From a virus: 64,000 bases of DNA. The first letter of the stretch is position 1. Each line of letters opens with the position of its first letter. The position numbers and the translations under genes were made by a program. The stretch is taken from positions 1 to 64,000 of IMG/VR virus record IMGVR_UViG_3300031159_000072; one strand, given 5' to 3'. The notes under the pieces were generated by a model that made no database searches, was not told the DNA's origin, and was given only the letters and a program-made list of their open reading frames with translations. This document shows positions 1 to 36,618 of this stretch, one piece after another.

Positions 1-1044
1 TCAGGCCATCAACTCCCACGGTCGCACCATCTTCAGCCGCGCCACGACATCGTGCAGCCGGTGCCTGACGTGCGTGTAGCGCTGCGTCATGACCAAGCTC
101 GTGTGCCCCAGCAGCTCCTGCACGTCCCTTATGTCGTTGCCCGCGTCGAGCACGTTCGTTGCGAAGGTGTGCCTCATGTCATAGGGCCGGAAGTCCTCGA
201 TGCCGGCCGCGTTGATGACCTGCCGCAGGGTCTTGTGCAGCCCCGGAAAGTTGCCGTTCGTTCCGATAGTCCACGGCTGGCCGTCCCTCCGTCGGAATAC
301 CCGCCCTTCCCGGTGTGGAAGGGACAGCAGGACGGCCAGCGCCTTCGGGTGCAGCGGCACGATGCGTCGCCGCGTCTTGCCGCCCTTGCGCGTCGTGAAG
401 AGTACCGTCTTGCGCCCCAGATCTATTTGCTCCCAGGTGCAGCGCGCCGCTTCCCCCGTTCTGGCCCCCGTATAGAGCATGAAGACGATCATGGGGACGA
501 GATGCGGCGCCCGCCGCTTGGCCGCTGCCAGCAGCCGCTCAACCTCCGGTTCCGTCAGGCGCCGGGTCCGCTCGTCGTCGACCTTCGGCATCGGGACCTT
601 CGGCGGCTTCGGAAGCCAGTCGTGCTTGTAGGCCATGTTCAGGATAGCGGCCAGTGTAACCAAGCTTCGCTTCACTGACCCCGGCTTGTGTCCGGCGTGC
701 CGCACCCGCACCCAGTGGGCAATGACCTCCGGCGTAATGTCTGTCAGCTTGCGGCCCCCGAAGTACTTGCGCAGATCTCCGACGAGCCACCGATCGTGGT
801 AGGAGACACCCTCCGGCCTCCCCAGGTACAAGTCAGCAGCATCGTCGAAAGTCTTGGCGGCGCTACTAGCGGGCGCTGAGGGCGTCACGCCAAGTGTAAG
901 CTGAGCCTCTAATTCCTTGAGCTTTTGTCTGGCTTTCTCGACTTCATGCAGCTTGCAGCCAGTGGATTTCCGTACTTTCTTCCCGTTCCAGTACCCAACG
1001 ATCTGAAGGCGTCCACCACGGGCCTTCAGCTTCAGCTCCGACAT
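1..1044 (-). CDS. int: tyrosine recombinase / phage integrase
   Basis: 347 aa; C-terminal catalytic region with ...HDMRHTFATNVLDAGNDIRDVQELLGHTSLVMTQRYTHV (R..H..R..Y signature); TGA stop at 1-3. Confidence 0.9.
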   Translation of the reverse strand: MSELKLKARGGRLQIVGYWNGKKVRKSTGCKLHEVEKARQKLKELEAQLTLGVTPSAPASSAAKTFDDAADLYLGRPEGVSYHDRWLVGDLRKYFGGRKLTDITPEVIAHWVRVRHAGHKPGSVKRSLVTLAAILNMAYKHDWLPKPPKVPMPKVDDERTRRLTEPEVERLLAAAKRRAPHLVPMIVFMLYTGARTGEAARCTWEQIDLGRKTVLFTTRKGGKTRRRIVPLHPKALAVLLSLPHREGRVFRRRDGQPWTIGTNGNFPGLHKTLRQVINAAGIEDFRPYDMRHTFATNVLDAGNDIRDVQELLGHTSLVMTQRYTHVRHRLHDVVARLKMVRPWELMA

Positions 1045-12469: not shown

Positions 12470-14167
12470 TTACGCCGCCAGGTCCTCTTGGAACTGCTTG
12501 GCGACGAGCACCGTCCGCTCAATGTGGCTGGCGTCGACGGGCTTGCCCTCGGACTTGGCGAGCGACTGAGCCAGACGGACGGTCGTCTTGATCTGCCGGC
12601 CGTTGATCTCGAAGCGGGCCAGCGCCTTCGGGTCGAGGCCGGTTACGCCGGCGGCGCTGAGCAGGTTGCGCCAGACGGCTTCCCGGTGGGACTCATCGAG
12701 CGGCGGGTACTTGAGGGCGATCGAGATGCGGCTGTGGAACGCCTGGTCGAAGTTCCTGACCCGGTTCGTGGTCAGGAACATGACGCCCTGGTGGTATTCC
12801 AGCAGACGCAGGAAGACGCCGACCATGGCGTTGCGCGTGATGTCGTGCTCGTCACGGGCCTCCAGGAAGATGTCGGCTTCGTCGAGGAGGACCACGGCGT
12901 TCCAGATCTGCGCCATGTCGAGGATCTGGCGCAGGCGATCCTCGAGTTCGTCGGGGCGTGTGCCCAGCTCGCCAACCGACACGCTGTAGAGTGGGCGGTG
13001 CAGCATCTCGGCGACGGCCTCGGCGGTCAGCGTCTTGCCGGTGCCGGGCGTGCCGTGCAGCAGGAAGATGCAGCCGCCGCCCTTGCCCTCGATGACGTCG
13101 GTGAAGGTGCGGCCGGCGTTCTGCACGAGGGCAAGGATCAGGCTCTTCTTGTCGGGGTCGAGGACGAGCGTGTCGAAGGCAGCGTCGTTGAACTCGATGG
13201 GCCGCAGGTGCTCGACGCGCATCTCACCCCACTTCTTGCAGGCGAAGCTGAAACCGTGGACGAACGGCCACGTCCGCCAGAGCTGGCTGTCCGGCAGCTC
13301 CTCAAAGGGGTCGCCAGACGAGTCGTCGTCGTCGAAGTACGAGCGGTCCCGGAAGTACTGGTCGTCGATCCGCTTCATGCTGTTGAGGTCGACCATGACC
13401 CGGCCCTCGGCGCGGAATGTCTGCGTCGACCACCAGTTCTTGCGGATCAGGTGCCCCGAGTAGTGGAGGTAGTTGGCGCCGATGGCGACGTCTCGGAAGA
13501 TGCGCCCGCGCTTGGTGAGGGTCTCACGATCGGCGTCGCTGAGCGGCCGGACGGGCAGCTCGTCGAACCTCACGGTGCCCTTGAACCAACTGATGCGGAA
13601 GTCGTGCTTCCGGTGGATGAACTTTGAGCCGTTCGTGTCGACGACGGTGATGATGATGTTGAAGTAGCGTCCGAACCACGAAGTGCCGTACTCTGCGATC
13701 TCGACCTCGCCGCCGACCAGGGTGTCCCGGTGTGGCCCAACGATCTTTTGCCCCTTCTGGAAGACGTACCAGAGGAAGTCGAAGGTGATAGCACCGTCGG
13801 CGATCATGGCGTCGATGGTGGCCTGTGTATCGGCGAAGCGCTTTTCCAGCTCGGCGAGGAGGCGGCGGAGGCTGTCGAAGTCGCGGTCGCGTTTCGTTGT
13901 CTCAGCGTACTGACGCATGGAGACGATGTGCCGGAAAAGGCTTTGCACCGGCGCCCGAGGGGCGTCTTGATACCAAACCCCATCCCGGTCCGCGTTCCTC
14001 AGCCATGATCTGGTGTAGACGTCGGTCACGACGACGTACTCGATCGTGTCGATGACCTTGCCGTCCCTGTCCTTCAGCTCCTCGGTCTCGAAGCGGAAGC
14101 CCATCTTCTTCGCGGCGTCATTCGTGGCCGTGGCGACGGTCCCGTCTGCGAGCTGCGCAACGTTCAT
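12470..14167 (-). CDS. AAA ATPase (classical clade) with an unrecognised ~330-aa N-terminal domain
   Basis: C-terminal half has Walker A LLHGTPGTGKT, Walker B VVLLDEADIF, sensor-1 FLTTNR, SRH arginine FDQAFHSR. Confidence 0.75.
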   Translation of the reverse strand: MNVAQLADGTVATATNDAAKKMGFRFETEELKDRDGKVIDTIEYVVVTDVYTRSWLRNADRDGVWYQDAPRAPVQSLFRHIVSMRQYAETTKRDRDFDSLRRLLAELEKRFADTQATIDAMIADGAITFDFLWYVFQKGQKIVGPHRDTLVGGEVEIAEYGTSWFGRYFNIIITVVDTNGSKFIHRKHDFRISWFKGTVRFDELPVRPLSDADRETLTKRGRIFRDVAIGANYLHYSGHLIRKNWWSTQTFRAEGRVMVDLNSMKRIDDQYFRDRSYFDDDDSSGDPFEELPDSQLWRTWPFVHGFSFACKKWGEMRVEHLRPIEFNDAAFDTLVLDPDKKSLILALVQNAGRTFTDVIEGKGGGCIFLLHGTPGTGKTLTAEAVAEMLHRPLYSVSVGELGTRPDELEDRLRQILDMAQIWNAVVLLDEADIFLEARDEHDITRNAMVGVFLRLLEYHQGVMFLTTNRVRNFDQAFHSRISIALKYPPLDESHREAVWRNLLSAAGVTGLDPKALARFEINGRQIKTTVRLAQSLAKSEGKPVDASHIERTVLVAKQFQEDLAA

Positions 14168-20443: not shown

Positions 20444-20676
20444 TGATGACCGCCATCGGATACCCCTACACCGTCGCTTCGCCGAACACGGAAGGCATCA
20501 CCTACGGCTCACCGATTCCAACGCACATCCCGCCCCACGGGCCGCTTGAGATCGCGCCGCCGCTCGTCGGCCCCTTCCCGCCCCAGCCCCAGTTCGGCTG
20601 GCTCTGCCCCGTCTGCAAGCGCGGCATCGCGCCGGACGTGAAGCACTGCGACCATGGCCATGCCCCGCCCAAATGA
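20443..20676 (+). CDS. Pro-rich small protein with C-terminal CxxC...CxH (77 aa)
   Basis: ...GWLCPVCKRGIAPDVKHCDHGH; ATGA-coupled to TerL. Confidence 0.45.
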   Translation: MMTAIGYPYTVASPNTEGITYGSPIPTHIPPHGPLEIAPPLVGPFPPQPQFGWLCPVCKRGIAPDVKHCDHGHAPPK

Positions 20677-22307
20677 CCAAGCTCTCGCGCGCCGAAGCGG
20701 CGCGCCACCTTCTGAAGGTCCGTGACGCCCAGGAATCCTTCCTCGGCTACGTCAAGCTGATGCGGCCGGACTGGGAGCACCTGCCCGACTTTCAGCTCCA
20801 GCTCATCGACGCCCTCGACAAGCTCGAGAAGGGCACCCTCAAGAACGAGAAGGGCGAGACCATCCGGCGCGTGCTCATCAACATGCCGCCGCGTCACTCC
20901 AAGTCCTCGATCGCCACCGAGCTGTTCCCGGCCTACTACATGGGCCGCAACGCCCGCCGAAAGGTGATGTCCTGCTCGTACAACGGCGAGCTGGCCGCCG
21001 ACTTCGGCGGCAAGGTCCGCGACTACGTCTGCCACCCCTTCCACTCCCAGGCGTTCCCGGACTTCACCCTGGACGACGCCAACCGCGCCCGCGACTTCTG
21101 GCGGACCAGGGAGGGCGGCCAGTACGCGGGCGTCGGTATCGGCGGCACGACGACGGGCCGCCCCGCGAACCTCCTTATTCTCGACGACCCCGTCAAATCC
21201 CGCGAGGAAGCCGAGTCCGCCACTTACCGCAACAAGACCTGGAACTACTACGTCTCCGGCCTGCTCACCCGTAAGGAGCCGCTCGGCCACGAGCGCCCCA
21301 TCGAGATCGTCATCCTGACCCGCTGGCACCCCGACGACGTCGCCGGCCGCATCATGGCCACCGACGACTGGAAGGAAGGCGCCTGGCTCCACATCAACCT
21401 GAAGGCCATCACGACCCGCCAGACGGGCGTCCAGGTCATCCGCACTCACCTGCCCGAAGACCACCCGATGTGGCTGCCCAAGGGCGCCCTCTCCAAGATC
21501 GCCCCGGCCAAGCGCTTCGTCTGGCAGGAAGAGGAGGTCGCCCTCTGGCCCGAGCGCTTCCCGCTCGAAGAACTCAAGAAGATCCAGCGCCGCGACCCGC
21601 GCGAGTTCGCCGCCCTCTACCAGCAGTCGCCTTACATCGAGGGCGGCAACATCATCAAGACGGACTGGTGGCGCTACTACAAGCCCGAGAACGCGCCGCA
21701 GTCCTTCTCCTCGATCGTCATCGCCGCCGACACCGCCTTCAAGAAGACCGAGACCGCGGACTACTCCGTGCTGCTCGTGGCCGGCCTGGCCTACGACGGC
21801 GACATGTACGTTCTCGACGTCGTCCGCGAACGCCTCGACTTCCCCGAACTCAAGCGGCGCGCGATCCTCCTCAACAACATCTGGCGCGGCAAGGGCCTGC
21901 GCGGCGTCTACATCGAAGATAAAGCCTCCGGCCAGTCCCTCATCCAAGAGCTGAAGGCGCTCTCCGGAATCTCGGTCATCCCCTACAAGGTCGTCAGCGA
22001 CAAGGTCGCGCGCATCAACTCCGTCACCCCGCTCATCGAGGGCGGCCGCGTCCTCCTGCCGGAGGACGCCCCCTGGCTCGACGCCTTCGTTCAGGAGGCC
22101 GTCGAGTTTCCGTCTGGTGCCCACGACGACCAGTGCGATGCCCTCTCGATCGCGCTCGACGTCCTGTCGCGCCAGTCCCTCTACACGCCGGACATGCTCA
22201 ACGTCCCGATCGAGGTCGGCCGCTCGCTCAACCAGACGGTCCGCAACACCCAGTCCAGCCTGCGCGCCGCCTTCAACCAGCACGCCTTTCGGGGCTGGGG
22301 GGAATAG
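20673..22307 (+). CDS. terL: terminase large subunit
   Basis: 544 aa; N-terminal ATPase region (...RVLINMPPRHSKSSIATELFPAYY..., ILDDPVK) and C-terminal RNase-H-like nuclease (VIAADTAFKKTE...YSVLLVAG..., DD...D); followed by the portal. Confidence 0.85.
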   Translation: MTKLSRAEAARHLLKVRDAQESFLGYVKLMRPDWEHLPDFQLQLIDALDKLEKGTLKNEKGETIRRVLINMPPRHSKSSIATELFPAYYMGRNARRKVMSCSYNGELAADFGGKVRDYVCHPFHSQAFPDFTLDDANRARDFWRTREGGQYAGVGIGGTTTGRPANLLILDDPVKSREEAESATYRNKTWNYYVSGLLTRKEPLGHERPIEIVILTRWHPDDVAGRIMATDDWKEGAWLHINLKAITTRQTGVQVIRTHLPEDHPMWLPKGALSKIAPAKRFVWQEEEVALWPERFPLEELKKIQRRDPREFAALYQQSPYIEGGNIIKTDWWRYYKPENAPQSFSSIVIAADTAFKKTETADYSVLLVAGLAYDGDMYVLDVVRERLDFPELKRRAILLNNIWRGKGLRGVYIEDKASGQSLIQELKALSGISVIPYKVVSDKVARINSVTPLIEGGRVLLPEDAPWLDAFVQEAVEFPSGAHDDQCDALSIALDVLSRQSLYTPDMLNVPIEVGRSLNQTVRNTQSSLRAAFNQHAFRGWGE

Positions 22308-22348: not shown

Positions 22349-24262
22349 ATGCTCACCGCCTCCTCTCACTACCGCGCGCTGCCGATCCCCCTCCCAATGG
22401 AGGGCATCGTCGTCGACCTGTCCGAACACGTCGACAGGCTGCTGCGCTACGAGGACATCTCGCACCTCCTCGACGAGACCCAGGAGACGCGCATCGTCGA
22501 GTACGTGCGGGCCATGCTCAAGATGTCTTACGACCGCATCTCGAAGCGGTATGACCACTGGCGCGAGGCCGATCGCGCCCACGACGTCTACGTGCCGCCC
22601 GAGGCCACGCGCTTCCGCGAGAAGGCGGTCATCGCCGACACCCGCGCCATCGCCGACACCGTCCTGACCTACCTCATGGCGGCCTTGGCCGGCCGCAATC
22701 CGATGTTCATGTTGGAGGGGCTCAACCGCCGCTCGCGGCGCGTCGCCGCCGTCCTTGAGCGCCTGCTCCACCAGCACATGCGCCGCACCGCCGGTGAGGC
22801 GCGCCTGGCCCAGCTCCTCCTCGACTCCGTGCGCTACGGCTTTGCCCCGACCAAGATCGTCTGGGACGCCAAGTCCAACACCAACCAGATCGTGAACTTC
22901 GACCCGCGCCGGGTCTTCCCGGACCCCCGCGTCTCCTGGGGCAACTGGGACGCGATGCAATTCATCGTCTTCACCTCCTTCGCCTCCTTCGAGTCGCTGG
23001 TCCAGACGGGGCTCTACCCGAAGCTCGAGATGTACCCCGGCCTCAAGTACGTCCACGCCCCGCTCACTAGCGGCTGGGAGGCCCACCGCTGGCTGCGCGA
23101 GGAGGGCCGCGGTCTGGCCATCGACCCGGCCAAGCCCAACGAAATTCAGGCCGGCGCTCAGTACTTCTCGCTCGGTTCGGCGCGCGTCGTCGACGAAGCC
23201 TGGGTCCGCCTGTCCGGCGCTGAGATCGGCGTGCCACAGCTCCACACCGTCTGGCTCCTCGTGGCCATCATGGACGAGTCCGTCTGCATCCGGCTCCAGC
23301 TCAACCCCTACGGCCAGCAATTCCCCGTGGTCATCGGCTCGCTCTACCACGACGCCCACAAGACCTACGGCCAGTCGCTCTACGACATCCTGCTGCCGAT
23401 GCACGACCTGGCCACCTGGCTCCTGCGCTCGCGCGTCGACAACGTTCAGGCCGCCCTGAACAACCTCATCTTCGCCGACCCCACCGTGGTCTCGCTCCCG
23501 GACCTGATCGACCGCAATCCGTGGGGCATCGTGCGCACCCTGCCCGGCACCAAGGCCGGCGAGGGCTTCTTCGTGGCCCAGATCCCGGACGTCACCCGCA
23601 CGCACTGGGACGACATCGCTTCGCTCGGCGAACTCAAGCAGCGCGTCTCGGCCGCCTCGGACGCGCAGCAGGGCGTGCCGACCGCCGACGTCCGCACGGC
23701 CACCGAGATCGCCCGGCTGACCCAGCTCGGCTCGCAGCGTCTGGGCGTCCTCAGCCGCATCCTCTCGGCCACCACCATCCGCCCGATGGTGCGCATGATG
23801 GTCAGCAACATTCAGGACACCCTGGCCTACGAGGGCTCGATTCGCGTCGACCCCTACAACACGCCGGGCCTGCTCGCCTCGATGGTCGAGGACGACTACA
23901 TCGACTTCACCGTGCAAGATCTGCAAGGCGACGTCGACTACCTCGTCGTCGACGGGACACTCCCCATCGAACCCACGCGCAATGCAGAGACCTGGCTCAA
24001 CATGCTCCAGATCCTGAACAACACGGGTCTCAATATGGAGTACAAGGCCGGGCGCATCGCCGAGGAGGCGATTCGCGCCATGGGCGTCTCCGACCTTGGC
24101 CAGTTCCGCATCAGCGCCGAAGAGCGCAAGCAGGGCCTGACCCCGAGCCAGCAGATCTCGCTCCTCGAAAAGATGCGGGGCGCCTCCGTCCGCCCCGAGG
24201 ACGAGGTTCGCGCCCAGGTCGAGGCCGGAAACCTGATCCCTCTCTCCCAGGCCGGCCTCTGA
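22349..24262 (+). CDS. portal protein
   Basis: 637 aa immediately after TerL; size and position typical of a podovirus-type portal. Confidence 0.65.
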   Translation: MLTASSHYRALPIPLPMEGIVVDLSEHVDRLLRYEDISHLLDETQETRIVEYVRAMLKMSYDRISKRYDHWREADRAHDVYVPPEATRFREKAVIADTRAIADTVLTYLMAALAGRNPMFMLEGLNRRSRRVAAVLERLLHQHMRRTAGEARLAQLLLDSVRYGFAPTKIVWDAKSNTNQIVNFDPRRVFPDPRVSWGNWDAMQFIVFTSFASFESLVQTGLYPKLEMYPGLKYVHAPLTSGWEAHRWLREEGRGLAIDPAKPNEIQAGAQYFSLGSARVVDEAWVRLSGAEIGVPQLHTVWLLVAIMDESVCIRLQLNPYGQQFPVVIGSLYHDAHKTYGQSLYDILLPMHDLATWLLRSRVDNVQAALNNLIFADPTVVSLPDLIDRNPWGIVRTLPGTKAGEGFFVAQIPDVTRTHWDDIASLGELKQRVSAASDAQQGVPTADVRTATEIARLTQLGSQRLGVLSRILSATTIRPMVRMMVSNIQDTLAYEGSIRVDPYNTPGLLASMVEDDYIDFTVQDLQGDVDYLVVDGTLPIEPTRNAETWLNMLQILNNTGLNMEYKAGRIAEEAIRAMGVSDLGQFRISAEERKQGLTPSQQISLLEKMRGASVRPEDEVRAQVEAGNLIPLSQAGL

Positions 24263-29896: not shown

Positions 29897-30967
29897 ATGG
29901 CCATCTCGATCATCTCGTCCGACGGCGTTGAGCACGGCGTCAACCCCTTCGACATCGTCCGCCTGGACGAGTCTGGGCGTCTGCCGCCCGTCGACGGCTC
30001 GCAGCTCACGAACCTCGTCCAGGCTTCCACGAGCCAGCCCGGCCTCGTCGAGTTGGCCACTGACGCCGAGGCGCGCGCCGGAACCGCCTCGAACCTCGCT
30101 GTCACCCCGGCCAACCTGGCCGCGACCCGCGGCCAGACGCCCTACCGCGAGTCAGGCGTCAGCATCAACCAGACGCTCGCCGACCGCGGCGGCATGGTGG
30201 CCTTCACCGCCGGCGGCGTAACCTTCAGCCTGCTCGCCGGCGCCACCGCCGGCGCCGGCTTCGTGACTCGCGTGAAGCACGCCGGCACGAGCGGTACGGT
30301 CACGATTGACCCCAACGGCTCCGAGACGATCGACGGTGCGTCCACCATGACCCTCTACGCCGGTCAGTGGGCAGACATCGTCTGGACAGGCTCCCAGTGG
30401 AGCACGTCTGCCTTCGCCGGCTTCCTGGCGGGCGACATCAAGATGACCGCGCACGCCACAACCCAGGTCGGCTGGATTCCCTGCGACGGCCGCGCCCTCA
30501 GCCGCACGGACTACCCCGCGCTCTTCGCAGCCATCGGCACCACTTGGGGTGCCGGTGACGGCAGCACCACTTTCAACGTTCCGGACGCGCGGGGCCGCGG
30601 CCCGATCGGTCAGGGCGATGGTGGCCCCAGTCTCACCAACCGCGTCGTCGGCCAGACGGGGGGCGAAGAGGCCCACACGCTCACCACGCAGGAAATGCCG
30701 CCGCACAGTCACGGCGCCGGGTCCTTGGCGACAAACACCGCGGGCGCCCACACGCACACCCTCGACATCAACAAAGAAGGCGGCGGCTCCCTGTTCTCCC
30801 AGTACCTCGACATTGGCGGCACGAACGGGAAAACCTCGGTTATCACGGCGAGATCCGCGGGGAACCACTCGCACGACGTGACGGGCTCAACCTCCTCCGC
30901 CGGCGGCAGCCAGCCGCACAACAACATGCAGCCCTTCTTCGTCGTGGGTTTTGCCATCAAGACGTGA
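29897..30967 (+). CDS. tail fibre protein with a C-terminal phage tail-collar domain
   Basis: GWIPCDGRALSRTDYPALFAAIGTTWGAGDGSTTFNVPDARGRGPIGQG...GEEAHTLT..EMPPHSH is the canonical tail-collar signature. Confidence 0.8.
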   Translation: MAISIISSDGVEHGVNPFDIVRLDESGRLPPVDGSQLTNLVQASTSQPGLVELATDAEARAGTASNLAVTPANLAATRGQTPYRESGVSINQTLADRGGMVAFTAGGVTFSLLAGATAGAGFVTRVKHAGTSGTVTIDPNGSETIDGASTMTLYAGQWADIVWTGSQWSTSAFAGFLAGDIKMTAHATTQVGWIPCDGRALSRTDYPALFAAIGTTWGAGDGSTTFNVPDARGRGPIGQGDGGPSLTNRVVGQTGGEEAHTLTTQEMPPHSHGAGSLATNTAGAHTHTLDINKEGGGSLFSQYLDIGGTNGKTSVITARSAGNHSHDVTGSTSSAGGSQPHNNMQPFFVVGFAIKT

Positions 30968-30971
30968 CGCC

Positions 30972-31235
30972 ATGGCCGACCCGACCCAGACCTCGACCGA
31001 CATCCTGCTGGCCATCGGGCGCCTCGAGGGCAAGATGGACGCGCTGGTCACGTCTGTTTCCGCGTTGCACGCGAGCCAGACGGCGCTCGACCAGAAGTAC
31101 GACTACGAGACCAAGCAGCTCCACAAGCGCGTCAACGATCTCGAGCGCGGCCAAGCCTACCGCGCGGGAGCTTGGGCGACCCTGGCGACCCTCGCTTCGG
31201 TGGTCATTAACTACGTCGTCAGAAAGTTCTCGTGA
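30972..31235 (+). CDS. small coiled-coil protein with a C-terminal TM helix (87 aa)
   Basis: MADPTQTSTDILLAIGRLEG...AWATLATLASVVINYVV; possible fibre-assembly or holin-like protein. Confidence 0.4.
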   Translation: MADPTQTSTDILLAIGRLEGKMDALVTSVSALHASQTALDQKYDYETKQLHKRVNDLERGQAYRAGAWATLATLASVVINYVVRKFS

Positions 31236-31516
31236 CCCCAAAAGAAGCGCATCGCGCCGTCAGTGAACTCATCGCCTCGCCAGGCTGGTCCTACCTCCGC
31301 TCGATCATGCGCGAGGAAGCCTATATCGCCGCCCTCAACATCGCCGATCCCCGCCCCATGGACCGCACGCAGATCGACTTCCAGCGCGGCGCCATCTGGG
31401 CGGCCAAGCAGCTCCTGGCCATGCCAGAGCGCGTCCTCCAGAAGCTGGAGGGCGACATTCTCCTGGAAGAAAGCCTCAACAAGGCGGACGACGCCCGCAA
31501 ACAAGACGCCTCATAA
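31232..31516 (+). CDS. hypothetical protein (94 aa)
   Basis: ATGA-coupled; balanced composition. Confidence 0.45.
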   Translation: MTPKEAHRAVSELIASPGWSYLRSIMREEAYIAALNIADPRPMDRTQIDFQRGAIWAAKQLLAMPERVLQKLEGDILLEESLNKADDARKQDAS

Positions 31517-31558
31517 GTGTCTCAATCCCGCTACGGCCGGATCACTTAGGAGTTCTTC

Positions 31559-32563
31559 ATGCCCCCCATCGACGATCGTGAGTTTATCGACCGCATCGCT
31601 TCCGCCGCGCTTGGCGTGCCGGCACAGGCCGCGGCTCCGCAAGAGGCCGCAGCCCAGGTCGCGGAAGCCGCTAAGAAGGCGGCCGAGGAAACCGTCGAGG
31701 CCGCTGCGCCCGAGACCGAGGCCGACAACCAGGCCGAGCCCGCCGTTGTCTACGAGGTCGACTTCGACGGTCAGAAACGCAAGTTTACGCCCGAGCAGAT
31801 CAAGGGCACCATCAGCCGCTACGCCGCGCTCAACCAGCGTCACGCCACCCTCAAGCCGGTCATCCAGGTCGCTGAGGAACTCATGGAGAAGTCCGGCCGC
31901 AGCTCCACGGACGTGGCCCGCTTCATCATCCAGGCGCTCAAGGCGGCCACCAAGAACCCGACGATGGGCGGCAAGGACAACAAGGTCGAGAAGCCGGCCG
32001 AGCCGGCGGCCGACATCGAGGACGCCCTCACCGCTTGGGAGCAGGAGAACGCGGCGTCCCTGCCGCCCGGCTACCGCGAGATGAGCAAGACGATGCAGCA
32101 GCTCGCGGAGGGGCAGCGCGCGCTCCAGCAGATGATCCAGTCTGTCCTGGCCACGGCGCGCGGCACCGCCGACGCGGCCGGCGCCATCAACGCCGATAGC
32201 CGGGCGCGCCAGATCCAAGCGGCCCGCCAGACGATCTCCAACAACCTCACCCGCGCGCAGCAGCAGCTCCAGCTCCCGGACGAAGCCGTCAACGACTTCA
32301 TCACGTTCGCCACCGAGCGCGGCTACACCATGGAGGACTTCCTCGATCCCGATCTGACGCTCAGGGTCGTGACCGACTTCAAGAACGCCATGAACTCCCC
32401 GGAGATGATGCGCCTGCGGGCCATCGCCGAGAAGCGCCAAGCCTACACGGGCTCGCTCGGCTCGACGCCCGCGACGCAGGGCTCCGCCCCGGTGACCGCG
32501 AAGGAGCCGACGCCGCTCGAACGCCTCACCACCATCGCCATGCAGCGACGCGGGATCGGTTAA
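31559..32563 (+). CDS. putative scaffolding protein
   Basis: 334 aa, highly helical, Ala/Glu/Gln-rich, directly upstream of the major capsid gene. Confidence 0.55.
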   Translation: MPPIDDREFIDRIASAALGVPAQAAAPQEAAAQVAEAAKKAAEETVEAAAPETEADNQAEPAVVYEVDFDGQKRKFTPEQIKGTISRYAALNQRHATLKPVIQVAEELMEKSGRSSTDVARFIIQALKAATKNPTMGGKDNKVEKPAEPAADIEDALTAWEQENAASLPPGYREMSKTMQQLAEGQRALQQMIQSVLATARGTADAAGAINADSRARQIQAARQTISNNLTRAQQQLQLPDEAVNDFITFATERGYTMEDFLDPDLTLRVVTDFKNAMNSPEMMRLRAIAEKRQAYTGSLGSTPATQGSAPVTAKEPTPLERLTTIAMQRRGIG

Positions 32564-32606
32564 GGCTTGCACTGGAGACGTCCGAGACGTACAACCTAGA
32601 CGTTGC

Positions 32607-32681
32607 TGCGGCGGCGTAGGCGCCTTGCAAGGCGTAGCCGGAACGCGCCTACGCCCCCCCCGAAACATCCGGTCCGCAGCA
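32607..32681 (+). other. compound GC hairpin (outer GCTGCGG/CCGCAGC, inner GCGTAGGCGC/GCGCCTACGC) followed by a C8 run
   Basis: Direct read between the scaffold stop and the tRNA-like elements. Confidence 0.5.
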
Positions 32682-32750
32682 GCCTTGTGGCGGGGAGCCT
32701 TGGAGGCCGGCGGGCCTCATAAGCCCGTCCTCGGTGGTTCGATTCCACCC
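32679..32750 (+). ncRNA. tRNA-like element 1 (CAT anticodon loop, canonical T-arm, 3' CCA; degenerate D-arm)
   Basis: Anticodon stem-loop CGGGC-CTCATAA-GCCCG, T-arm GGTGG-TTCGATT-CCACC, acceptor GGCGGGG/CTCCGCT with two G·U pairs, then A-CCA; the D-region is only ~13 nt. Confidence 0.4.
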
Positions 32751-32752
32751 TC

Positions 32753-32828
32753 CGCTACCAATGCGGCGTTGGTCACTCTGGTGAGGGCCTCGGCCTTCCA
32801 AGCCATTGAGGCGAGTTCGATTCTCGCA
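32753..32828 (+). tRNA. tRNA-like gene, 76 nt, Gly(TCC)-like anticodon loop
   Basis: Perfect 7-bp acceptor GCGGCGT/ACGCCGC, discriminator T, CCA; T-arm GCGAG-TTCGATT-CTCGC at canonical positions 49-65; anticodon loop CTTCCAA but only 3 of 5 stem pairs. Confidence 0.55.
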
Positions 32829-32841
32829 CGCCGCTCCAGAC

Positions 32842-32888
32842 GGGGGCCGCCCCGACTTAAACCGTAGGGGCGGCCCCTTCATTTTCGG
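32842..32888 (+). terminator. rho-independent terminator
   Basis: GGGGCCGCCCC-(13 nt)-GGGGCGGCCCC followed by TTCATTTTCGGG. Confidence 0.7.
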
Positions 32889-33084
32889 GACGAAAACCTC
32901 CCGAACCATTCGCTAGACACGAAGACAGCGTAAGTCCCCGCCGCCATTCAGCGTCCGCGATTCCGCCGACGCGCCACGCCGCGAAGGGACCGAAGCACCG
33001 AGCGACGGCCGAGGCCGCGATGACCATTCCGCGACCGGCGCGAGCGCTCCCGAGAGCTTTGGTTTCAATTCGTGGAGCATTCAC

Positions 33085-34272
33085 ATGCCTACCCCGATTC
33101 TGGGTCTGCGCGGGACTGGCGAGTTCAACCAGGATTTCCGCCCGACCAACTATCGCGAGCTGTTCACGCTCCTCGAGCCGAACGGCACCGCGCCCCTCAA
33201 CGCGCTTCTGGCCATGGCCACGAACGAGGCCACGGACGACCCGAAGTTCAACAACTTCCGGGACGAGCTGCCTGACCGGACGCTGACCGTTGACAACGAG
33301 ACCGGCTACAACGCCACCACCACGACCCTCCAAATGGATGCCGGCTCCGAGGTCGGTTACGTCCTGGCCGGCTCTATCGTCGTCAACTCGCGCACCGGCG
33401 AGGTGATGCACGCGACGGCCGACGGCAACACCGTGGCCAAGACGATCACCGTCACCCGCAACATTGGCGGCACGTCGCACACCATCAACGACGGCGACCA
33501 ACTCTTCGTCGCCGGCTTCGCGGCGAAGGAAGGTTCGAGCGCCCCGAACGCGATCTCCTTCGACGCCGTCGTCGACTACAACTACACCCAGATCTTCAAG
33601 ACGCCCTTCAAGGTCTCGGGCACCCTCGACAACACCCGTCTGCGGACCGGGAACAAGTACGACGAGGCCATGACGAAGGCGCTCAAGCTCCACATGAGCG
33701 ACATCGAGCGCGCCTTCTTCTGGTCCATCCGCAATGAGGTGAACGGCTCGACCTCCGAGCCGCTGCGCTTCACCGGCGGCCTGATGAACCTCCTGCAAAA
33801 CCAGACGATCGACGTGTCCACCTTCGACACGCCGAACGACATGACCGAAGATCAGTTCGACCGTCTGCTGATCGACACGATCTTCGCCTACGGCTCGGCC
33901 GAGAAGCTGGCCTTCGTCGGCGCGACCGTCGCCGGCCACCTCCAGAAGTTCGGCAAGAACCGCTGGCAGCCGACCCAGGTGCAGGGCACCTACGGCGTCA
34001 ACGTCACCCGATACCAGACCTTCGCCGGCGACCTGATGGTTCACCTGCACCCGCAGTTCCGCCAGGTGCCGGGCATGGACAGCGCGATGGTCATTCTGGA
34101 CCTGCCGCACGTCAAGTACCGCTACCTGCAAAACCGCGACACGCATCTTCAGGAGAACATCCAGGCGAACGACGAGGACGCCAAGAAGTCGCAGTACCTC
34201 ACGGAATGCGGCCTCGAGCTGACCCAGTCCAAGGTCCACGCCGTCATCAAGAACTGGAAGACCGTCTCCTAA
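33085..34272 (+). CDS. major capsid protein (HK97-fold type)
   Basis: 395 aa directly after the scaffold; GGAG RBS; composition and length typical of podovirus major capsid proteins. Confidence 0.7.
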   Translation: MPTPILGLRGTGEFNQDFRPTNYRELFTLLEPNGTAPLNALLAMATNEATDDPKFNNFRDELPDRTLTVDNETGYNATTTTLQMDAGSEVGYVLAGSIVVNSRTGEVMHATADGNTVAKTITVTRNIGGTSHTINDGDQLFVAGFAAKEGSSAPNAISFDAVVDYNYTQIFKTPFKVSGTLDNTRLRTGNKYDEAMTKALKLHMSDIERAFFWSIRNEVNGSTSEPLRFTGGLMNLLQNQTIDVSTFDTPNDMTEDQFDRLLIDTIFAYGSAEKLAFVGATVAGHLQKFGKNRWQPTQVQGTYGVNVTRYQTFAGDLMVHLHPQFRQVPGMDSAMVILDLPHVKYRYLQNRDTHLQENIQANDEDAKKSQYLTECGLELTQSKVHAVIKNWKTVS

Positions 34273-34312
34273 TCGGGACGATCCCGATAACCCTTCCGGG
34301 CACTCTTCGCGA

Positions 34313-34348
34313 GGGCCGGGCTCACAAGGCCCGGCCCTCTTTCTTTCC
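34313..34348 (+). terminator. rho-independent terminator after the capsid gene
   Basis: GGGCCGGGC-TCACAA-GGCCCGGCCC followed by TCTTTCTTTCC; a strong RBS ACAGGAGG follows. Confidence 0.7.
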
Positions 34349-34360
34349 ACAGGAGGACCC

Positions 34361-34687
34361 ATGTCAAAGGCCGTCGTCGGCACCCAGACCACAGGAACCG
34401 CCATCCCCCAGGAGGACGCGAAGGCCGTGCGCAAGGGCGCCGAGAACCGCGCCCGCGAGGTCGCCCGCGGCGAGGCCGCGAAGCGCCCGCCGCGCCGGAC
34501 CGAGACCATGTTCATCACCGCCGGCCCCGTCCCCGAGAAGTTCGACATCTACATGGGCAACATCACGATCAGGGGCTCGCGCAACGAGGGGACAGGGCAC
34601 TGCATTTTCCGCGTGCCTAACGAGCTGGTCGAGCGCTTCATGCGCCATTCCCTCGTCAAGTTCGGCCACATCATTCTCGCCGAGTGA
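34361..34687 (+). CDS. hypothetical virion protein (108 aa)
   Basis: Follows the capsid terminator, has its own RBS. Confidence 0.5.
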   Translation: MSKAVVGTQTTGTAIPQEDAKAVRKGAENRAREVARGEAAKRPPRRTETMFITAGPVPEKFDIYMGNITIRGSRNEGTGHCIFRVPNELVERFMRHSLVKFGHIILAE

Positions 34688-34690
34688 CCG

Positions 34691-35128
34691 ATGACCGGCA
34701 GCAGCCCGCACATCATCGAAGGCGCCAGCCCCCTTGAGGTCCTGGCCATGCGTGCCCTCCGGCGCTACGGCGACTTCCATCCCGGCACGGTCGACGGCGA
34801 CGTCATTCTGATGTTCATCGACTTCGCCAACGAGATCCTCCAGGACCTCCGTGGCCACCCCTACTGGAGCACGCCGATCGAGGATTACACCAGCCAAACG
34901 GAGACCCGCCCGGTCCCGGACAACATCATCGTGACTGGGCTGCTCTACAGGTACGCCATCCAGCAGATGTCCGCGAAGGCGCCCGTCTACGAGCGCCTCT
35001 ACTTCCAGACGATGAACCAGACGCTCTGGAACCTGCTGAACGGCAACACGCGGCTCCGCCTGCGCGTCGTTGACGGCACGCCTACGAACGAGACCAACGG
35101 CCTCCCCCGTGACGAGGCCGCCGAATGA
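34691..35128 (+). CDS. hypothetical structural protein (145 aa)
   Basis: Tightly linked. Confidence 0.5.
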   Translation: MTGSSPHIIEGASPLEVLAMRALRRYGDFHPGTVDGDVILMFIDFANEILQDLRGHPYWSTPIEDYTSQTETRPVPDNIIVTGLLYRYAIQQMSAKAPVYERLYFQTMNQTLWNLLNGNTRLRLRVVDGTPTNETNGLPRDEAAE

Positions 35129-36618
35129 GCAGCACGCTCTCCCCGTCTGGCGTCAAGACAAAGGCGTTCGCCTACGAGCTGTTCGAGGGGATCGACGCCC
35201 ACCGCGACGCCACCGCCCTCGACACCGGCCGGCACCAGCACCTCACCCGGCTCGAAAACGGGTACTGCGACTGGCGCGGCGTCATCACGCGCGACCCCGG
35301 CGCCATCAAGCGCGGCGCCAACAACGCCGTCATCGACCACATCGCCTTCTTCGGCCGGGACCTGGTCACATGGGCGCAGCGGGACGGCGGCGGCATCACC
35401 CTGAACAGCGACCGCGGCCATGTCGTGGAGGAAGTCTACCCCCTGACGGCCGCCGTCACCTCGACGGTGTTCAACCACCGCGTCCACTTCATGGCCCGCG
35501 GCCACACGATGTACAACTACGACGGCTTCGTCTGGCGCCAGAACGAGAGCCCCTCGAACCCCCAACCCGCCTTCGGCGTGGCCATTCAGCGCCGCCTGGC
35601 CGTCGCCGGCTTCATCGGCCGCCAGACGGCCATCGACTTCAGCCGGGTCGACGATCCGAACGTTTTCCCGGATGACGAGCAGCCGAACAACCCCAACGTC
35701 CTCAAGGCCGCCCGCCTCGACATCCGCAACGTCCTCGGGACCGCCGACGAGATCAAGGGCCTCGGCGTGTTCGAGAGCAACCGGCTGGCCATCTTCACGA
35801 GCGACCGCACGATCATCTACACGATCGAAGAGGACTACACGAGGTGGTCGATCGACGACCGGGCCAACATCCGCGTCGGCACGATCAGCCACAACACCAT
35901 CGCCCAGGCTGGCGGCGACCTCCTCTTCTGCTCGCGCGACGGCGTTCACGCCCTGCGGCGCTCCGACAACAACGGCGTCACGATCTTCACACTGCCACTC
36001 TCGCACAAGATCGACCTTCTGTATCGCCGCCTGCTCCGGTCCGTCGAAAACCCCGAGGCGATCAGCGCCGTCTACGACCAGGACAAAGGCCAGTACCACA
36101 TCTTCTTCCCGCGCCCCGGCGGGGCGCTGGCCACGCGCCTGACCGTCTCGCTGACGCCGAACGACCAGGGCGAGCCCAAGTGGTCCACTGGCACCTTCCT
36201 CAATGCACGTTGCGGCGCCCATCTCGCGGGCCAGCTCCTGTACGGCACTTCTGGGGGCATCTACGAGATCCAGAACATCGAGACTCACACTGAGGTCTCG
36301 CCCAAGATGACGATCGAGACGCCCGTGCTCTGGCAGGGCGCTCTGAACGACTACAAGGAGAGCCACTCGATCATCATCCAGGCGTCTGGGAAGGGCGTTC
36401 TGACCATCGAGGCGTTCGACGAACGCGGCCGTCTTCTGTCCTCGCAGGTCGTCGAGATCCAGGGCGACGCGGACGACAGCTTCCCAGACGTCCCGCTAAA
36501 CAGGCAGTACGAGCGGAAGTTTGAGCATCGCTACCGTGGCGTCCAATTCCGCTTCACGGTCGAGGGGTCCGGGGTCATCCGGATCACTGGCTTCGCGGTC
36601 TTGGTGAGGCGTTCTTAA
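35125..36618 (+). CDS. structural protein (497 aa; tail tubular-type position)
   Basis: ATGA-coupled; position between head and tail genes. Confidence 0.5.
   Translation: MSSTLSPSGVKTKAFAYELFEGIDAHRDATALDTGRHQHLTRLENGYCDWRGVITRDPGAIKRGANNAVIDHIAFFGRDLVTWAQRDGGGITLNSDRGHVVEEVYPLTAAVTSTVFNHRVHFMARGHTMYNYDGFVWRQNESPSNPQPAFGVAIQRRLAVAGFIGRQTAIDFSRVDDPNVFPDDEQPNNPNVLKAARLDIRNVLGTADEIKGLGVFESNRLAIFTSDRTIIYTIEEDYTRWSIDDRANIRVGTISHNTIAQAGGDLLFCSRDGVHALRRSDNNGVTIFTLPLSHKIDLLYRRLLRSVENPEAISAVYDQDKGQYHIFFPRPGGALATRLTVSLTPNDQGEPKWSTGTFLNARCGAHLAGQLLYGTSGGIYEIQNIETHTEVSPKMTIETPVLWQGALNDYKESHSIIIQASGKGVLTIEAFDERGRLLSSQVVEIQGDADDSFPDVPLNRQYERKFEHRYRGVQFRFTVEGSGVIRITGFAVLVRRS

What the first reader, a model, noticed from the sequence alone, without database searches (positions are those of the whole stretch)
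32600..32900. Two tandem tRNA-like elements (CAT and TCC loops) plus a compound hairpin and terminator between the scaffold and capsid genes
Element 2 (32753-32828) is exactly 76 nt with a perfect 7-bp acceptor stem, a canonical T-arm (GCGAG-TTCGATT-CTCGC), discriminator+CCA and a Gly(TCC)-type loop CTTCCAA, but a weak 3-bp anticodon stem. Element 1 (32679-32750) has a CAT loop, a canonical T-arm and CCA, but a miniature D-arm.

Upstream is a nested GC hairpin ending in C8, and downstream is a strong terminator at 32842-32888. This could be a functional phage tRNA pair, tRNA-derived processing or integration relics, or structured RNA that tunes capsid expression.
Basis: seen in the sequence. 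Interest (0 to 1): 0.55.

Follow-up and report, generated by a model that had tools for sequence, protein, structure and literature searches.

The report
Two prophage tRNA genes before capsid
The two "tRNA-like elements" are a tandem pair of phage-encoded tRNA genes (an initiator-type tRNA-Met and a tRNA-Gly) at the end of a late operon of an integrated phage, which is ordinary for phages although both have unusual arms.

Summary
ARAGORN calls tRNA-Met(CAU) at 32689-32760 and tRNA-Gly(UCC) at 32763-32838. Both pass the Rfam tRNA gathering score, though weakly (31.6 and 36.1 bits; cut-off 29).

The window is a ~66-kb integrated podovirus-like prophage with an SU10-type capsid and portal. The pair sits between the putative scaffold gene and an intrinsic terminator. 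That terminator is present in six of the seven relatives' spacers I read; the tRNAs are an insertion upstream of it.

The Met gene belongs to a phage-enriched class of initiator-type CAU tRNAs. These have A8, a compact D arm and a weak or mismatched 1:72 pair. A model built without the window scores it 74.4 bits.

The closest relative (L061) keeps a homologous CAU element at the same site but has no Gly gene.

The Gly gene keeps all the bacterial GlyRS identity elements I recall. Its anticodon stem has only 3 of 5 pairs, which suggests relaxed selection.

No tRNA lies at either prophage junction, so the attB/relic idea fails.

The parts
31559..32563 (+). Putative scaffold gene (334 aa), the last ORF of the upstream late operon. 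The tRNA cassette lies in its 3' untranslated tail.
   Evidence: High-GC3 ORF (0.90). No Pfam or PHROG hit. An ORF of similar size (335-350 aa) sits directly upstream of the capsid gene in relatives L059, L062 and L064; L061's upstream ORF is shorter, at 259 aa.
32602..32683 (+). Compound (three-way) GC-rich hairpin ending 5 nt before tRNA-Met. It has a 10-bp outer stem, an 11-bp inner stem (GGCGTAGGCGC/GCGCCTACGCC) followed by C8, and a small 3-bp hairpin. Its function is unknown. My inference is that it acts as a 5' leader and as a 3'-end protecting structure for the scaffold mRNA after RNase P cleavage.
   Evidence: Fold energy -47.4 kcal/mol, z = -2.87. It is unique in the window. No meaningful Rfam hit: only an rsmX match at 13.1 bits (gathering 56, E = 6.8) overlaps it. 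It is absent from L061, where the CAU element abuts the stop codon.
32689..32760 (+). tRNA-Met(CAU) gene of initiator type, 72 nt with encoded CCA. Features: G1-U72 wobble, G2:C71, C3:G70, A73, A8, a compact D arm (3-4 bp stem, loop UGG/UUGGA), an anticodon stem CGGGC/GCCCG that can extend to 7 bp, and a canonical T arm.
   Evidence: ARAGORN. RF00005 at 31.6 bits. The minimum-free-energy fold is a cloverleaf. Family model R1, built without this sequence, scores it 74.4 bits, E = 6e-12. The family cloverleaf is supported by covariation.
32763..32838 (+). tRNA-Gly(UCC) gene, 76 nt with encoded CCA. Features: G1:C72, C2:G71, G3:C70, U73, a long irregular D stem with a 4-nt loop (tRNA-Sec-like), and an anticodon stem with only 3 of 5 pairs.
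   Evidence: ARAGORN. RF00005 at 36.1 bits. The tRNA-Sec model scores 38.3 bits, below its gathering score. The nearest relative is L160 Gly(tcc), 62/76 identical, with the same 5' anticodon-stem strand but a perfect stem. Having 3 of 5 pairs puts it in the lowest 1.2% of 1185 phage-array tRNAs.
32839..32885 (+). Intrinsic terminator (a 12-13-bp GC stem, then UUCAUUUU) that ends the scaffold/tRNA transcript. It is ancestral to this phage group.
   Evidence: Fold energy -33.9 kcal/mol, z = -4.0. Found by the terminator scan. An equivalent GC hairpin plus T-run follows the scaffold stop in L001, L002, L059, L061, L062 and L064.
32886..33084 (+). Long 5' leader of the capsid gene, beginning with the conserved motif CGGGACGAAAAC. 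It may mark the start of the capsid transcript or a 5' hairpin.
   Evidence: A GGGACGA or GGACGA motif lies just after the terminator T-run in L059, L061, L062 and L064, and further downstream in L001 as CACTATAGGGACG. This was not investigated further.
33085..34272 (+). Major capsid protein gene (395 aa), SU10 type.
   Evidence: PF17236 SU10_MCP, E = 7e-44. phrog_1328 major head protein. 64% identical to the major capsid protein of Roseobacter phage CRP-810.

Best explanation
These are two genuine phage-encoded tRNA genes, carried as a small cassette in the 3' untranslated tail of the late operon that ends with the putative scaffold gene.

Proposed mechanism (inferred, except where marked as shown):
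1. Late transcription runs about 125 nt past the scaffold stop codon, through the leader hairpin and both tRNAs. It stops at the intrinsic terminator at 32839-32885. The terminator is shown; the read-through is inferred.
2. RNase P cuts 5' of G32689 and G32763. The AU spacer and the terminator trailer are trimmed back to the genome-encoded CCA ends.
3. The cut leaves the scaffold mRNA ending in the stable compound hairpin, which could protect it from 3' exonucleases.

The first product is an initiator-type tRNA-Met.
- Its CAU anticodon and A73 would allow charging by MetRS.
- Its weak G1-U72 pair, with G2:C71, C3:G70 and G4:C69, would allow formylation.
- It belongs to a phage-enriched structural class with A8 and a compact D arm.

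The second product is tRNA-Gly(UCC), which reads GGA and GGG. It carries the bacterial GlyRS identity set that I recall.

The cassette was most likely acquired from the tRNA array of another GC-rich phage. It supplements or replaces host tRNAs during late protein synthesis. The initiator is the selected component, because it is retained in the closest relative. The Gly gene appears to be under relaxed selection: its anticodon stem is weakened here, and it is absent from that relative (L061).
For: Detection:
- ARAGORN calls both elements; they are the only two calls in 64 kb, on the same strand, 2 nt apart.
- Rfam tRNA scores both above its gathering score.
- The Met element folds into a cloverleaf as its minimum-free-energy structure.

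Family membership of the Met element:
- A pattern from the Met element hits at least 119 IMG/VR contigs, giving 78 distinct sequences. Most lie inside phage tRNA arrays, with a median of 11 tRNAs per locus.
- Across 80 sequences the cloverleaf has 89.5% of cells paired, against 35-50% when the partners are slid. There are 347 cells with changes on both sides of a pair.
- The 1:72 pair is never G:C or C:G.
- In the four checked arrays (L081, L083, L093, L115) with two or three CAU tRNAs, the non-family CAU tRNAs have a strong 1:72 pair (G1:C72 or C1:G72), and those in the three-CAU arrays also have a canonical U8 and D arm. The family is therefore the initiator.
- Model R1, built without the window or L061, scores the window element 74.4 bits and L061 63.5 bits. 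It finds nothing in the 60 other capsid relatives searched.

Comparison with L061:
- L061 (capsid 73% identical) has its CAU element in the same spacer.
- Five of the 7 anticodon-stem pairs are changed on both sides, while the loop is identical.

Origin from phage arrays:
- A Met followed directly by Gly(tcc) also occurs in arrays L079 and L090. In L160 the order is Met-Phe-Gly(tcc).

Identity elements of the Gly gene:
- G1:C72, C2:G71, G3:C70, U73, C35 and C36 are read directly from the sequence.
- The rule set itself comes from my own knowledge.

Context:
- A terminator downstream of the scaffold stop is shared by six of the seven relatives' spacers read.
- Temperate prophages of alphaproteobacteria commonly carry a single tRNA-Met or tRNA-fMet gene (PMC12429752).
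Against: - The general-model scores are low: 31.6 and 36.1 bits, against 30-69 bits for tRNAs in two phage arrays.
- The Gly anticodon stem has only 3 of 5 pairs. That is the bottom 1.2% of 1185 phage-array tRNAs, and none of 34 distinct Gly(tcc) genes is as weak. Its minimum-free-energy fold is not a cloverleaf.
- The Met element has A8 instead of U8, and a G-U wobble rather than a true mismatch at 1:72. Its 31:39 pair is C-G rather than the G-C of the canonical three-GC initiator motif.
- Codon supplementation is a weak rationale. GGA is 4% of Gly codons in the late genes and is absent from the capsid and scaffold genes.
- The other 62 capsid-relative loci scanned have no tRNA in this spacer; model R1 searched 60 of them and also found nothing. 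The cassette is therefore dispensable for this phage type.
- Expression, processing and charging are all untested.
Confidence: 0.78

Rival explanations
1. Decaying passengers. The cassette was captured from another phage's tRNA array and is now non-functional or nearly so. It survives only because it sits in a neutral spacer upstream of the terminator.
For: - Rfam scores are low.
- The Gly anticodon stem has two mismatches relative to its closest homologue, L160.
- The Gly gene is missing in L061. There the CAU element's ACCA is followed by CTCCAGAC, which is also the junction sequence after the window's Gly gene.
- GGA codons are rare in the phage.
- The other 62 capsid-relative loci scanned lack the cassette; R1 confirmed this in the 60 it searched.
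Against: - The acceptor and T stems are perfectly paired, the CCA ends are kept, and every synthetase and formylase identity element I recall is intact in both genes.
- The CAU element is retained in both the window and L061, with compensatory stem changes and an invariant loop.
- The window's Met element scores 74.4 bits on the family model, as high as a typical member.
Confidence: 0.15
2. A cis-acting tRNA-like processing module. The cloverleaves would serve mainly as RNase P/RNase Z cleavage signals. These would separate, stabilise or time the scaffold and capsid messages, rather than supply tRNAs for translation.
For: - The cassette lies exactly between the scaffold and capsid genes.
- A stable hairpin ends 5 nt before the predicted RNase P site.
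- In L061 the CAU element starts immediately after the stop codon, and its T loop is not of the T-Psi-C type (GGCAGUA).
- RNase P cleavage of tRNA-like structures within mRNAs is an established phenomenon (my own knowledge).
Against: - Six of the seven relatives' spacers read already have a strong terminator, five with a conserved downstream motif, and only L061 has any tRNA-like element. The terminator alone already separates the two messages.
- Conservation of the anticodon loop, the discriminator and the acceptor identity pairs is not required for a mere cleavage signal.
- The family mostly sits in large tRNA arrays, where a translational role is the simple reading.
Confidence: 0.05
3. Integration-related. 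The elements would be attP/attB relics, or tRNAs that compensate for a host tRNA gene destroyed by prophage insertion (tRNA-dependent lysogeny).
For: - The phage is temperate: a tyrosine integrase lies at 1-1044 on the minus strand.
- Phage-encoded tRNAs that rescue a disrupted host tRNA gene are documented. Guerrero-Bustamante and Hatfull (2024) is cited for this in PMC12429752.
Against: - The elements are complete genes 31 kb from the integrase.
- The integrase-side junction (L186) is followed by genes with ordinary bacterial domains (DUF1491, DUF2934, GlgE-type), taken here as host. ARAGORN finds no tRNA in 16.9 kb there.
- The far junction (L258) lies next to an SMR-type (Multi_Drug_Res) gene and an epimerase gene, again taken as host, and also has no tRNA.
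- No other T-arm-like fragment occurs in the window above chance expectation.
Confidence: 0.02

Closest known systems
Phage-encoded tRNA genes, including annotated tRNA-Met genes of Gordonia phage Boopy (MK894436) and Pseudomonas phage UAVern (MZ605293)
   Same: They are CAU tRNAs with a weak U1-A72 pair, an initiator-like acceptor stem (UGCGGAG / UGCGAGG ... GCAA) and the same anticodon arm type (xGU/C-CUCAUAA-GCx). Family model R1 scores them 54.5 and 48.1 bits.
   Different: They have U8 or G8 and a full-size D arm (76-79 nt), and they lie in large tRNA arrays of lytic phages of about 100 kb. The window's gene is 72 nt, has A8 and a 3-4-bp D stem, and stands with a single partner in a temperate podovirus-like prophage.
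Single tRNA-Met / tRNA-fMet genes of temperate alphaproteobacterial prophages (Sinorhizobium meliloti phiLM21-like prophages, PMC12429752)
   Same: These are GC-rich temperate prophages of 50-55 kb carrying one or two CAU tRNA genes that are unrelated to their integration site.
   Different: I could not compare sequences. Those prophages integrate into tRNA genes, whereas this one does not. The capsid lineage also differs: no phiLM21 hit appeared.
Bacterial initiator tRNA(fMet), e.g. E. coli metZWV/metY (from my own knowledge)
   Same: CAU anticodon, loop CUCAUAA, acceptor stem xGCGGGG/CCCCGCx, A73, G2:C71, C3:G70, and no strong 1:72 pair.
   Different: The canonical form has a C1xA72 mismatch, U8, a standard D arm with A11:U24, and G29-G30-G31 paired with C39-C40-C41. 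The window has G1-U72, A8, a compact D arm, and G29:C41, G30:C40, C31:G39.
tRNA-Sec-type D arm (Rfam RF01852) and compact-arm tRNAs of organelles
   Same: The Gly gene and its relative in L160 align better to the tRNA-Sec model than to the general model. The reason is a 6-7-bp D stem with a 4-nt loop.
   Different: The anticodon is UCC, not UCA. There is no long variable arm, the acceptor stem is 7 bp, and the score is below the tRNA-Sec gathering score (38.3 bits against 47). It is not a tRNA-Sec.

Membership tests
tRNA (Rfam RF00005) | Covariance-model score at or above the gathering score of 29 bits | tested here: met
   The Gly element scores 36.1 bits in the whole-window scan. The Met element scores 31.6 bits in the 601-nt scan, but was lost to the speed filters in the whole-window scan.
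tRNA (Rfam RF00005) | Cloverleaf with a 7-bp acceptor stem, 5-bp anticodon stem with 7-nt loop, and 5-bp T stem with 7-nt loop | tested here: met
   The Met element has 7/7, 5/5 and 5/5 pairs (two G-U pairs in the acceptor stem). The Gly element has 7/7, 3/5 and 5/5 pairs.
tRNA (Rfam RF00005) | Canonical core nucleotides: U8, A14, G18-G19, T54-Psi55-C56 | tested here: inconclusive
   Both have the T loop TTCGATT and a GG in the D loop. The Met element has A8. The Gly element has U8 but C at the position equivalent to 14.
Bacterial initiator tRNA(fMet) | CAU anticodon with A73, G2:C71 and C3:G70 (MetRS and formyltransferase determinants; from my own knowledge) | tested here: met
   Read directly from 32689-32760.
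Bacterial initiator tRNA(fMet) | No Watson-Crick pair at 1:72 | tested here: inconclusive
   The window has a G1-U72 wobble. It is weak but is still a pair. Across the 80-sequence family, 51 have no pair at 1:72 and none has G:C or C:G.
Bacterial initiator tRNA(fMet) | Three consecutive G:C pairs at 29:41, 30:40 and 31:39 | tested here: not met
   The window has G:C, G:C and C:G. The family mostly has A:U or G:C, then G:C, then U-G.
Bacterial initiator tRNA(fMet) | Purine 11 : pyrimidine 24 pair in the D stem | tested here: inconclusive
   The compact D arm cannot be numbered unambiguously. The likely 11:24 equivalent is C:G.
Phage compact-D-arm initiator-type CAU tRNAs (defined here; model R1) | Match to a covariance model built from 78 IMG/VR members, excluding the window | tested here: met
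   74.4 bits, E = 6e-12, full length.
Phage compact-D-arm initiator-type CAU tRNAs (defined here; model R1) | xGCGGGG-A8-G9, a D region of 13-19 nt, and an encoded A73-CCA | tested here: met
   GGCGGGG-AG, a 15-nt D region, and CTCCGCT-A-CCA. Caveat: these features were also the search pattern, so the family boundary is set by that pattern.
Bacterial tRNA-Gly (GlyRS identity set; from my own knowledge) | G1:C72, C2:G71, G3:C70, U73, C35 and C36 | tested here: met
   GCGGCGU...ACGCCGC-U-CCA with anticodon UCC. The same set occurs in 25 of 44 phage Gly(tcc) genes.
attP / tRNA-gene integration relic | A partial tRNA (3' part) next to the integrase, or repeated at the prophage ends | tested here: not met
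   The genes are complete and lie 31 kb from the integrase. No tRNA is found at either junction.
tmRNA | A tRNA-like domain plus a tag reading frame | tested here: not met
   ARAGORN calls no tmRNA in the window. Rfam gives no tmRNA hit in 32500-33100.

The most novel reading that the evidence does not exclude
The CAU element may represent a distinct, phage-specific class of initiator tRNA.

Features of the class:
- A8.
- A 4-bp D stem that starts at position 9, with a 3-6-nt loop.
- A U31-G39 or C31-G39 pair in place of the third G:C pair.
- In some members, a T loop like that of alphaproteobacterial tmRNA (GGCAGUA).

Standard tRNA finders miss about half of the class. It is far commoner in viral contigs than in cellular genomes.

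It is retained in this prophage and in L061, while the Gly partner shows signs of loss. That pattern would fit a role that the host initiator cannot fill. One example is an initiator that escapes host nucleases that cleave tRNA(fMet), such as VapC-type toxins, and so keeps late phage translation going.
Probability: 0.25. Interest if true: 0.6.

Novelty: new member of a known kind. Interest (0 to 1): 0.3.

Why it matters
For this window the result mainly corrects the annotation. It places two tRNA genes, a terminator and a capsid leader in a prophage that has no close sequenced relative.

The wider point is modest. The Met gene belongs to a large class of initiator-type tRNAs that is enriched in phages. 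ARAGORN missed 63 of 119 pattern hits, and Rfam's tRNA model at its default filters missed the members in two arrays. Surveys of phage tRNA content may therefore undercount initiators.

If these compact initiators prove resistant to host nucleases that target tRNA, they would extend the idea that phage tRNAs act as counter-defence to the initiation step of translation.

Tried and rejected
- Near-identity search of 30000-36000 against the 50,697 phage records gave no match.
- An exact 29-nt pattern from the Gly T arm and acceptor stem gave 0 hits in IMG/VR.
- Looking up the capsid protein returned only a 1.5-kb contig for the window's own phage. No relative closer than 73% exists among 5.8 billion proteins. 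Covariation within the immediate lineage therefore rests on a single relative, L061.
- Codon-compensation check: GGA is rare in the phage's own genes, so this gives no support.
- Complementarity between the tRNA region and the capsid leader was examined (inverted repeats I3, I4, I6 and I7). The segments are in parallel rather than antiparallel order, and the DNA is 65% GC, so I judged it chance.
- The compound hairpin was tested as a third, degenerate tRNA. It has no tRNA or other meaningful Rfam hit (only rsmX at 13.1 bits, E = 6.8) and no second copy in the window. Its 79-nt three-way junction lacks an anticodon-type loop. I rejected the idea, and its function remains unexplained.
- Five literature searches found no paper describing the compact A8 initiator class. 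The absence applies only to the library that was searched.
- The attB and tRNA-dependent-lysogeny readings were tested by fetching both prophage junctions, and rejected.
Full report
**1. Observation**

I read 32400-33100 directly.
- ARAGORN finds exactly two tRNA genes in the 64-kb window. They are tRNA-Met(CAU) at 32689-32760 (72 nt) and tRNA-Gly(UCC) at 32763-32838 (76 nt), on the same strand and 2 nt apart.
- Rfam's tRNA model (RF00005, gathering score 29 bits) scores the Gly gene 36.1 bits in the whole-window scan. It scores the Met gene 31.6 bits in a 601-nt scan. The whole-window scan lost the Met gene to its speed filters.
- The upstream compound hairpin (32602-32683; -47 kcal/mol, z = -2.9) and the downstream hairpin plus U-tract (32839-32885; -34 kcal/mol, z = -4.0) are also real.

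**2. Context**

- The window lies entirely inside an integrated phage.
- Its genes include a tyrosine integrase (1-1044, minus strand), a terminase (20673-22307), an SU10-type portal (22349-24262), a tail-collar fibre, an SU10-type major capsid protein (33085-34272), a 3077-aa ORF and a primase-polymerase.
- The nearest annotated phage is Roseobacter phage CRP-810, whose capsid protein is 64% identical.
- The nearest protein among 5.8 billion is 73% identical. This phage therefore has no close sequenced relative.
- The 334-aa ORF upstream (31559-32563) has no family hit. An ORF of 335-350 aa sits directly upstream of the capsid gene in L059, L062 and L064 (259 aa in L061). 'Scaffold' is a reasonable but unproven label.

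**3. The spacer in relatives**

- I fetched 58 IMG/VR loci and five further relative loci that encode relatives of the capsid protein. ARAGORN finds no tRNA in the scaffold-capsid spacer of any of them. Its only call in these loci is one on the opposite strand inside the L001 capsid gene.
- I read seven of these spacers. Six begin with a strong intrinsic terminator shortly after the scaffold stop codon. In five of the seven a GGGACGA-like motif follows, and then a leader of about 200 nt.
- The terminator is therefore ancestral. The window's hairpin and two tRNAs are an insertion upstream of it.
- The exception is L061, the closest relative. Directly after its stop codon lies a 74-nt cloverleaf-like element, which ARAGORN and Rfam's tRNA model both miss:
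  UGCGGGG-AG...ACGCCGC-CUCAUAA-GCGGCGU...CCGGG-GGCAGUA-CCCGG-CCCCGCA-ACCA.

**4. The Met element belongs to a large phage family**

- I searched with a pattern shared by the window and L061: GCGGGGAG, 15-22 nt, CTCATAA, 25-34 nt, CCGCNACCA.
- Most hits lie in phage tRNA arrays, with a median of 11 tRNAs per locus. ARAGORN calls only 56 of the 119.
- On an 80-sequence alignment the cloverleaf has 89.5% of cells paired, against 35-50% when the 3' partners are slid. There are 347 cells with changes on both sides of a pair, and the covariation score is 0.51 against 0.05-0.15.
- The 1:72 position is unpaired in 51 of 80 sequences and is never G:C or C:G. Positions 2-5 are invariant GCGG, paired with CCGC, and the discriminator is always A. 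Part of this follows from the search pattern itself.
- In the four checked arrays (L081, L083, L093, L115) with two or three CAU tRNAs, the non-family CAU tRNAs have a strong 1:72 pair (G1:C72 or C1:G72). Those in the three-CAU arrays also have U8 and a normal D arm. By elimination, and by its acceptor stem, the family is the initiator type.
- A covariance model built from the 78 sequences, excluding the window and L061, scores the window element 74.4 bits (E = 6e-12) and L061 63.5 bits. It finds nothing in the 60 other capsid relatives searched.
- Annotated tRNA-Met genes of Gordonia phage Boopy and Pseudomonas phage UAVern score 54.5 and 48.1 bits. The kind is therefore already annotated in GenBank, but as plain tRNA-Met.
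- The same pattern hits only 70 loci in one genome from each of 185,579 species. Most of these are one conserved 73-nt sequence in small tRNA arrays of Verrucomicrobiota genomes.

**5. Window versus L061**

- The two CAU elements occupy the same spacer.
- Five of the 7 pairs of the extended anticodon stem are changed on both sides, while the loop CUCAUAA is identical.
- L061 has a non-canonical T loop, GGCAGUA. This loop recurs in other family members. The L061 T arm matches the T arm of the alphaproteobacterial tmRNA model.
- In L061 the element's ACCA is followed by CTCCAGAC. That is the same sequence as the junction after the window's Gly gene (GC-TCCA-GAC).
- I infer that the ancestor carried both genes and that L061 later lost the Gly gene. 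This rests on an 8-nt match and is only suggestive.

**6. The Gly gene**

- It carries G1:C72, C2:G71, G3:C70, U73, C35 and C36. These are the bacterial GlyRS identity elements as I know them. I did not test the rule set here.
- Its closest relative among 44 phage-array Gly(tcc) genes is in L160, a GC-rich array ordered Met-Phe-Gly(tcc). It is 62/76 identical.
- L160 has the same 5' anticodon-stem strand (UCGGC) but a perfect stem, with GCCGA where the window has GCCAU.
- Only 14 of 1185 distinct phage-array tRNAs have as few as 3 anticodon-stem pairs, and none of the 34 distinct Gly(tcc) genes does.
- Both the window gene and the L160 gene have a long D stem with a 4-nt loop. That is why both align better to the tRNA-Sec model than to the general model.
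- A Met followed directly by Gly(tcc), with a 1-nt gap, also occurs in arrays L079 and L090.
- The cassette was probably acquired from such an array.

**7. Why carry them?**

- Codon compensation is weak. GGA is 4% and GGG 9% of Gly codons in the late genes, and GGA is absent from the capsid and scaffold genes.
- The integration hypotheses fail. I fetched both prophage junctions. The integrase side is followed by genes with DUF1491, DUF2934 and GlgE-type domains. The far side, about 1.5-2 kb beyond the window, lies next to an SMR-type (Multi_Drug_Res) gene and an epimerase gene. I take both sets as host genes. No tRNA is present at either end.
- Both junction regions contain AGACGTCTAA, which is a candidate att core.
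- What remains is general support of late translation, or replacement of host tRNAs that become limiting or are attacked. This is consistent with the published hypothesis that phage tRNAs evade tRNA-targeting defences (PMC10264068). It is also consistent with single tRNA-Met or tRNA-fMet genes being common in temperate alphaproteobacterial prophages (PMC12429752).
- I did not find the compact A8 initiator class described in five full-text searches.

**8. Mechanism (inferred, except where marked)**

- Late transcripts read through the scaffold stop codon and end at the terminator. The terminator is shown; the read-through is inferred.
- RNase P and 3' trimming release the two tRNAs, whose CCA ends are encoded in the genome.
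- The compound hairpin ends 5 nt before the RNase P site. It would then form the 3' end of the scaffold mRNA and could protect it from exonucleases.
- The CAU tRNA would be charged by MetRS and formylated. The UCC tRNA would be charged by GlyRS, possibly working poorly because of its weak anticodon stem.

**9. Verdict**

- Three unusual points remain: the compact D arm and A8 of the initiator-type gene, the tRNA-Sec-like D arm and weakened anticodon stem of the Gly gene, and the unexplained leader hairpin.
- Novelty: a new member of a known kind.
- Interest: 0.3. The more interesting lead is the phage-enriched, under-detected class of initiator tRNA, which I rate at probability 0.25 of being a functionally distinct class and interest 0.6 if true.

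Noticed in passing
IMG/VR loci L065-L183; GTDB loci L188-L257: A class of initiator-type CAU tRNAs of 70-78 nt, with A8 and a compact D arm, occurs in at least 119 viral contigs. It occurs in only 70 loci across 185,579 species genomes. ARAGORN misses 63 of the 119. The cellular hits are mostly one conserved 73-nt sequence in small tRNA arrays of Verrucomicrobiota genomes. There is also a 76-nt sequence in Acetobacteraceae that no tRNA finder called.
   Followed up: partly
L061:1668-1684, and family members such as L113, L137, L074, L077, L068: Several members replace the T-Psi-C loop with GGCAGUA, GGCAGUU, GCCAGCA or AGCAUGA. The L061 T arm (CCGGGGGCAGUACCCGG) matches the T arm of the alphaproteobacterial tmRNA model RF01849 almost exactly (positions 92-108, 16.4 bits, E = 0.006).
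   Followed up: no
window:32886-33084, and the equivalent spacers of L001, L059, L061, L062, L064: The capsid gene has a leader of about 200 nt. It begins with a conserved GGGACGA motif just after the terminator T-run. In L001 the motif reads CACTATAGGGACG, which resembles a T7-type promoter core. Shared blocks such as GCACCGAG and CCGCGAC lie further on. The region may be a phage promoter or a structured leader.
   Followed up: no
window:32602-32683: A three-way GC-rich hairpin with a C8 run lies directly upstream of the tRNA-Met gene. It is unique in the window, has no meaningful Rfam hit (only rsmX at 13.1 bits, E = 6.8), and is absent from L061. Its function is unexplained.
   Followed up: partly
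L186:11045-11152 and L258:18560-18880 (just outside both ends of the window): These are the prophage-host junctions. The prophage is about 66 kb. It lies between a DUF1491 gene and an SMR-type (Multi_Drug_Res) gene, both taken as host. Both junction regions contain AGACGTCTAA, a candidate att core. The window starts exactly at the integrase stop codon.
   Followed up: partly
window:42165-51398: A single 3077-aa ORF with GC3 of 0.91 lies in the structural module. I did not scan it against the protein-family libraries. It may be a giant internal virion or ejection protein.
   Followed up: no
window:5721-10281 (minus strand): The early region encodes a CobT/VWA-domain protein (825 aa) next to an AAA_5 (MoxR/dynein-like) ATPase (664 aa). 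A further AAA plus DUF7025 protein lies at 12470-14167. This pairing is unusual for a phage.
   Followed up: no
L061:1700-1815: In L061, an AT-rich stretch of about 110 nt lies between the CAU element and the terminator. It differs in composition from the rest of the locus and looks like a foreign insertion or the scar of a deletion.
   Followed up: no
L065, L073, L075, L076, L089, L099, L111, L124: Several of the phage tRNA arrays that carry the compact initiator also encode a tmRNA, and the family element often lies within a few hundred nt of it. Examples are L065, L073 and L099, whose tmRNA has the tag ANVELSTMTFEDAMAWMNSFDYAVAA.
   Followed up: no
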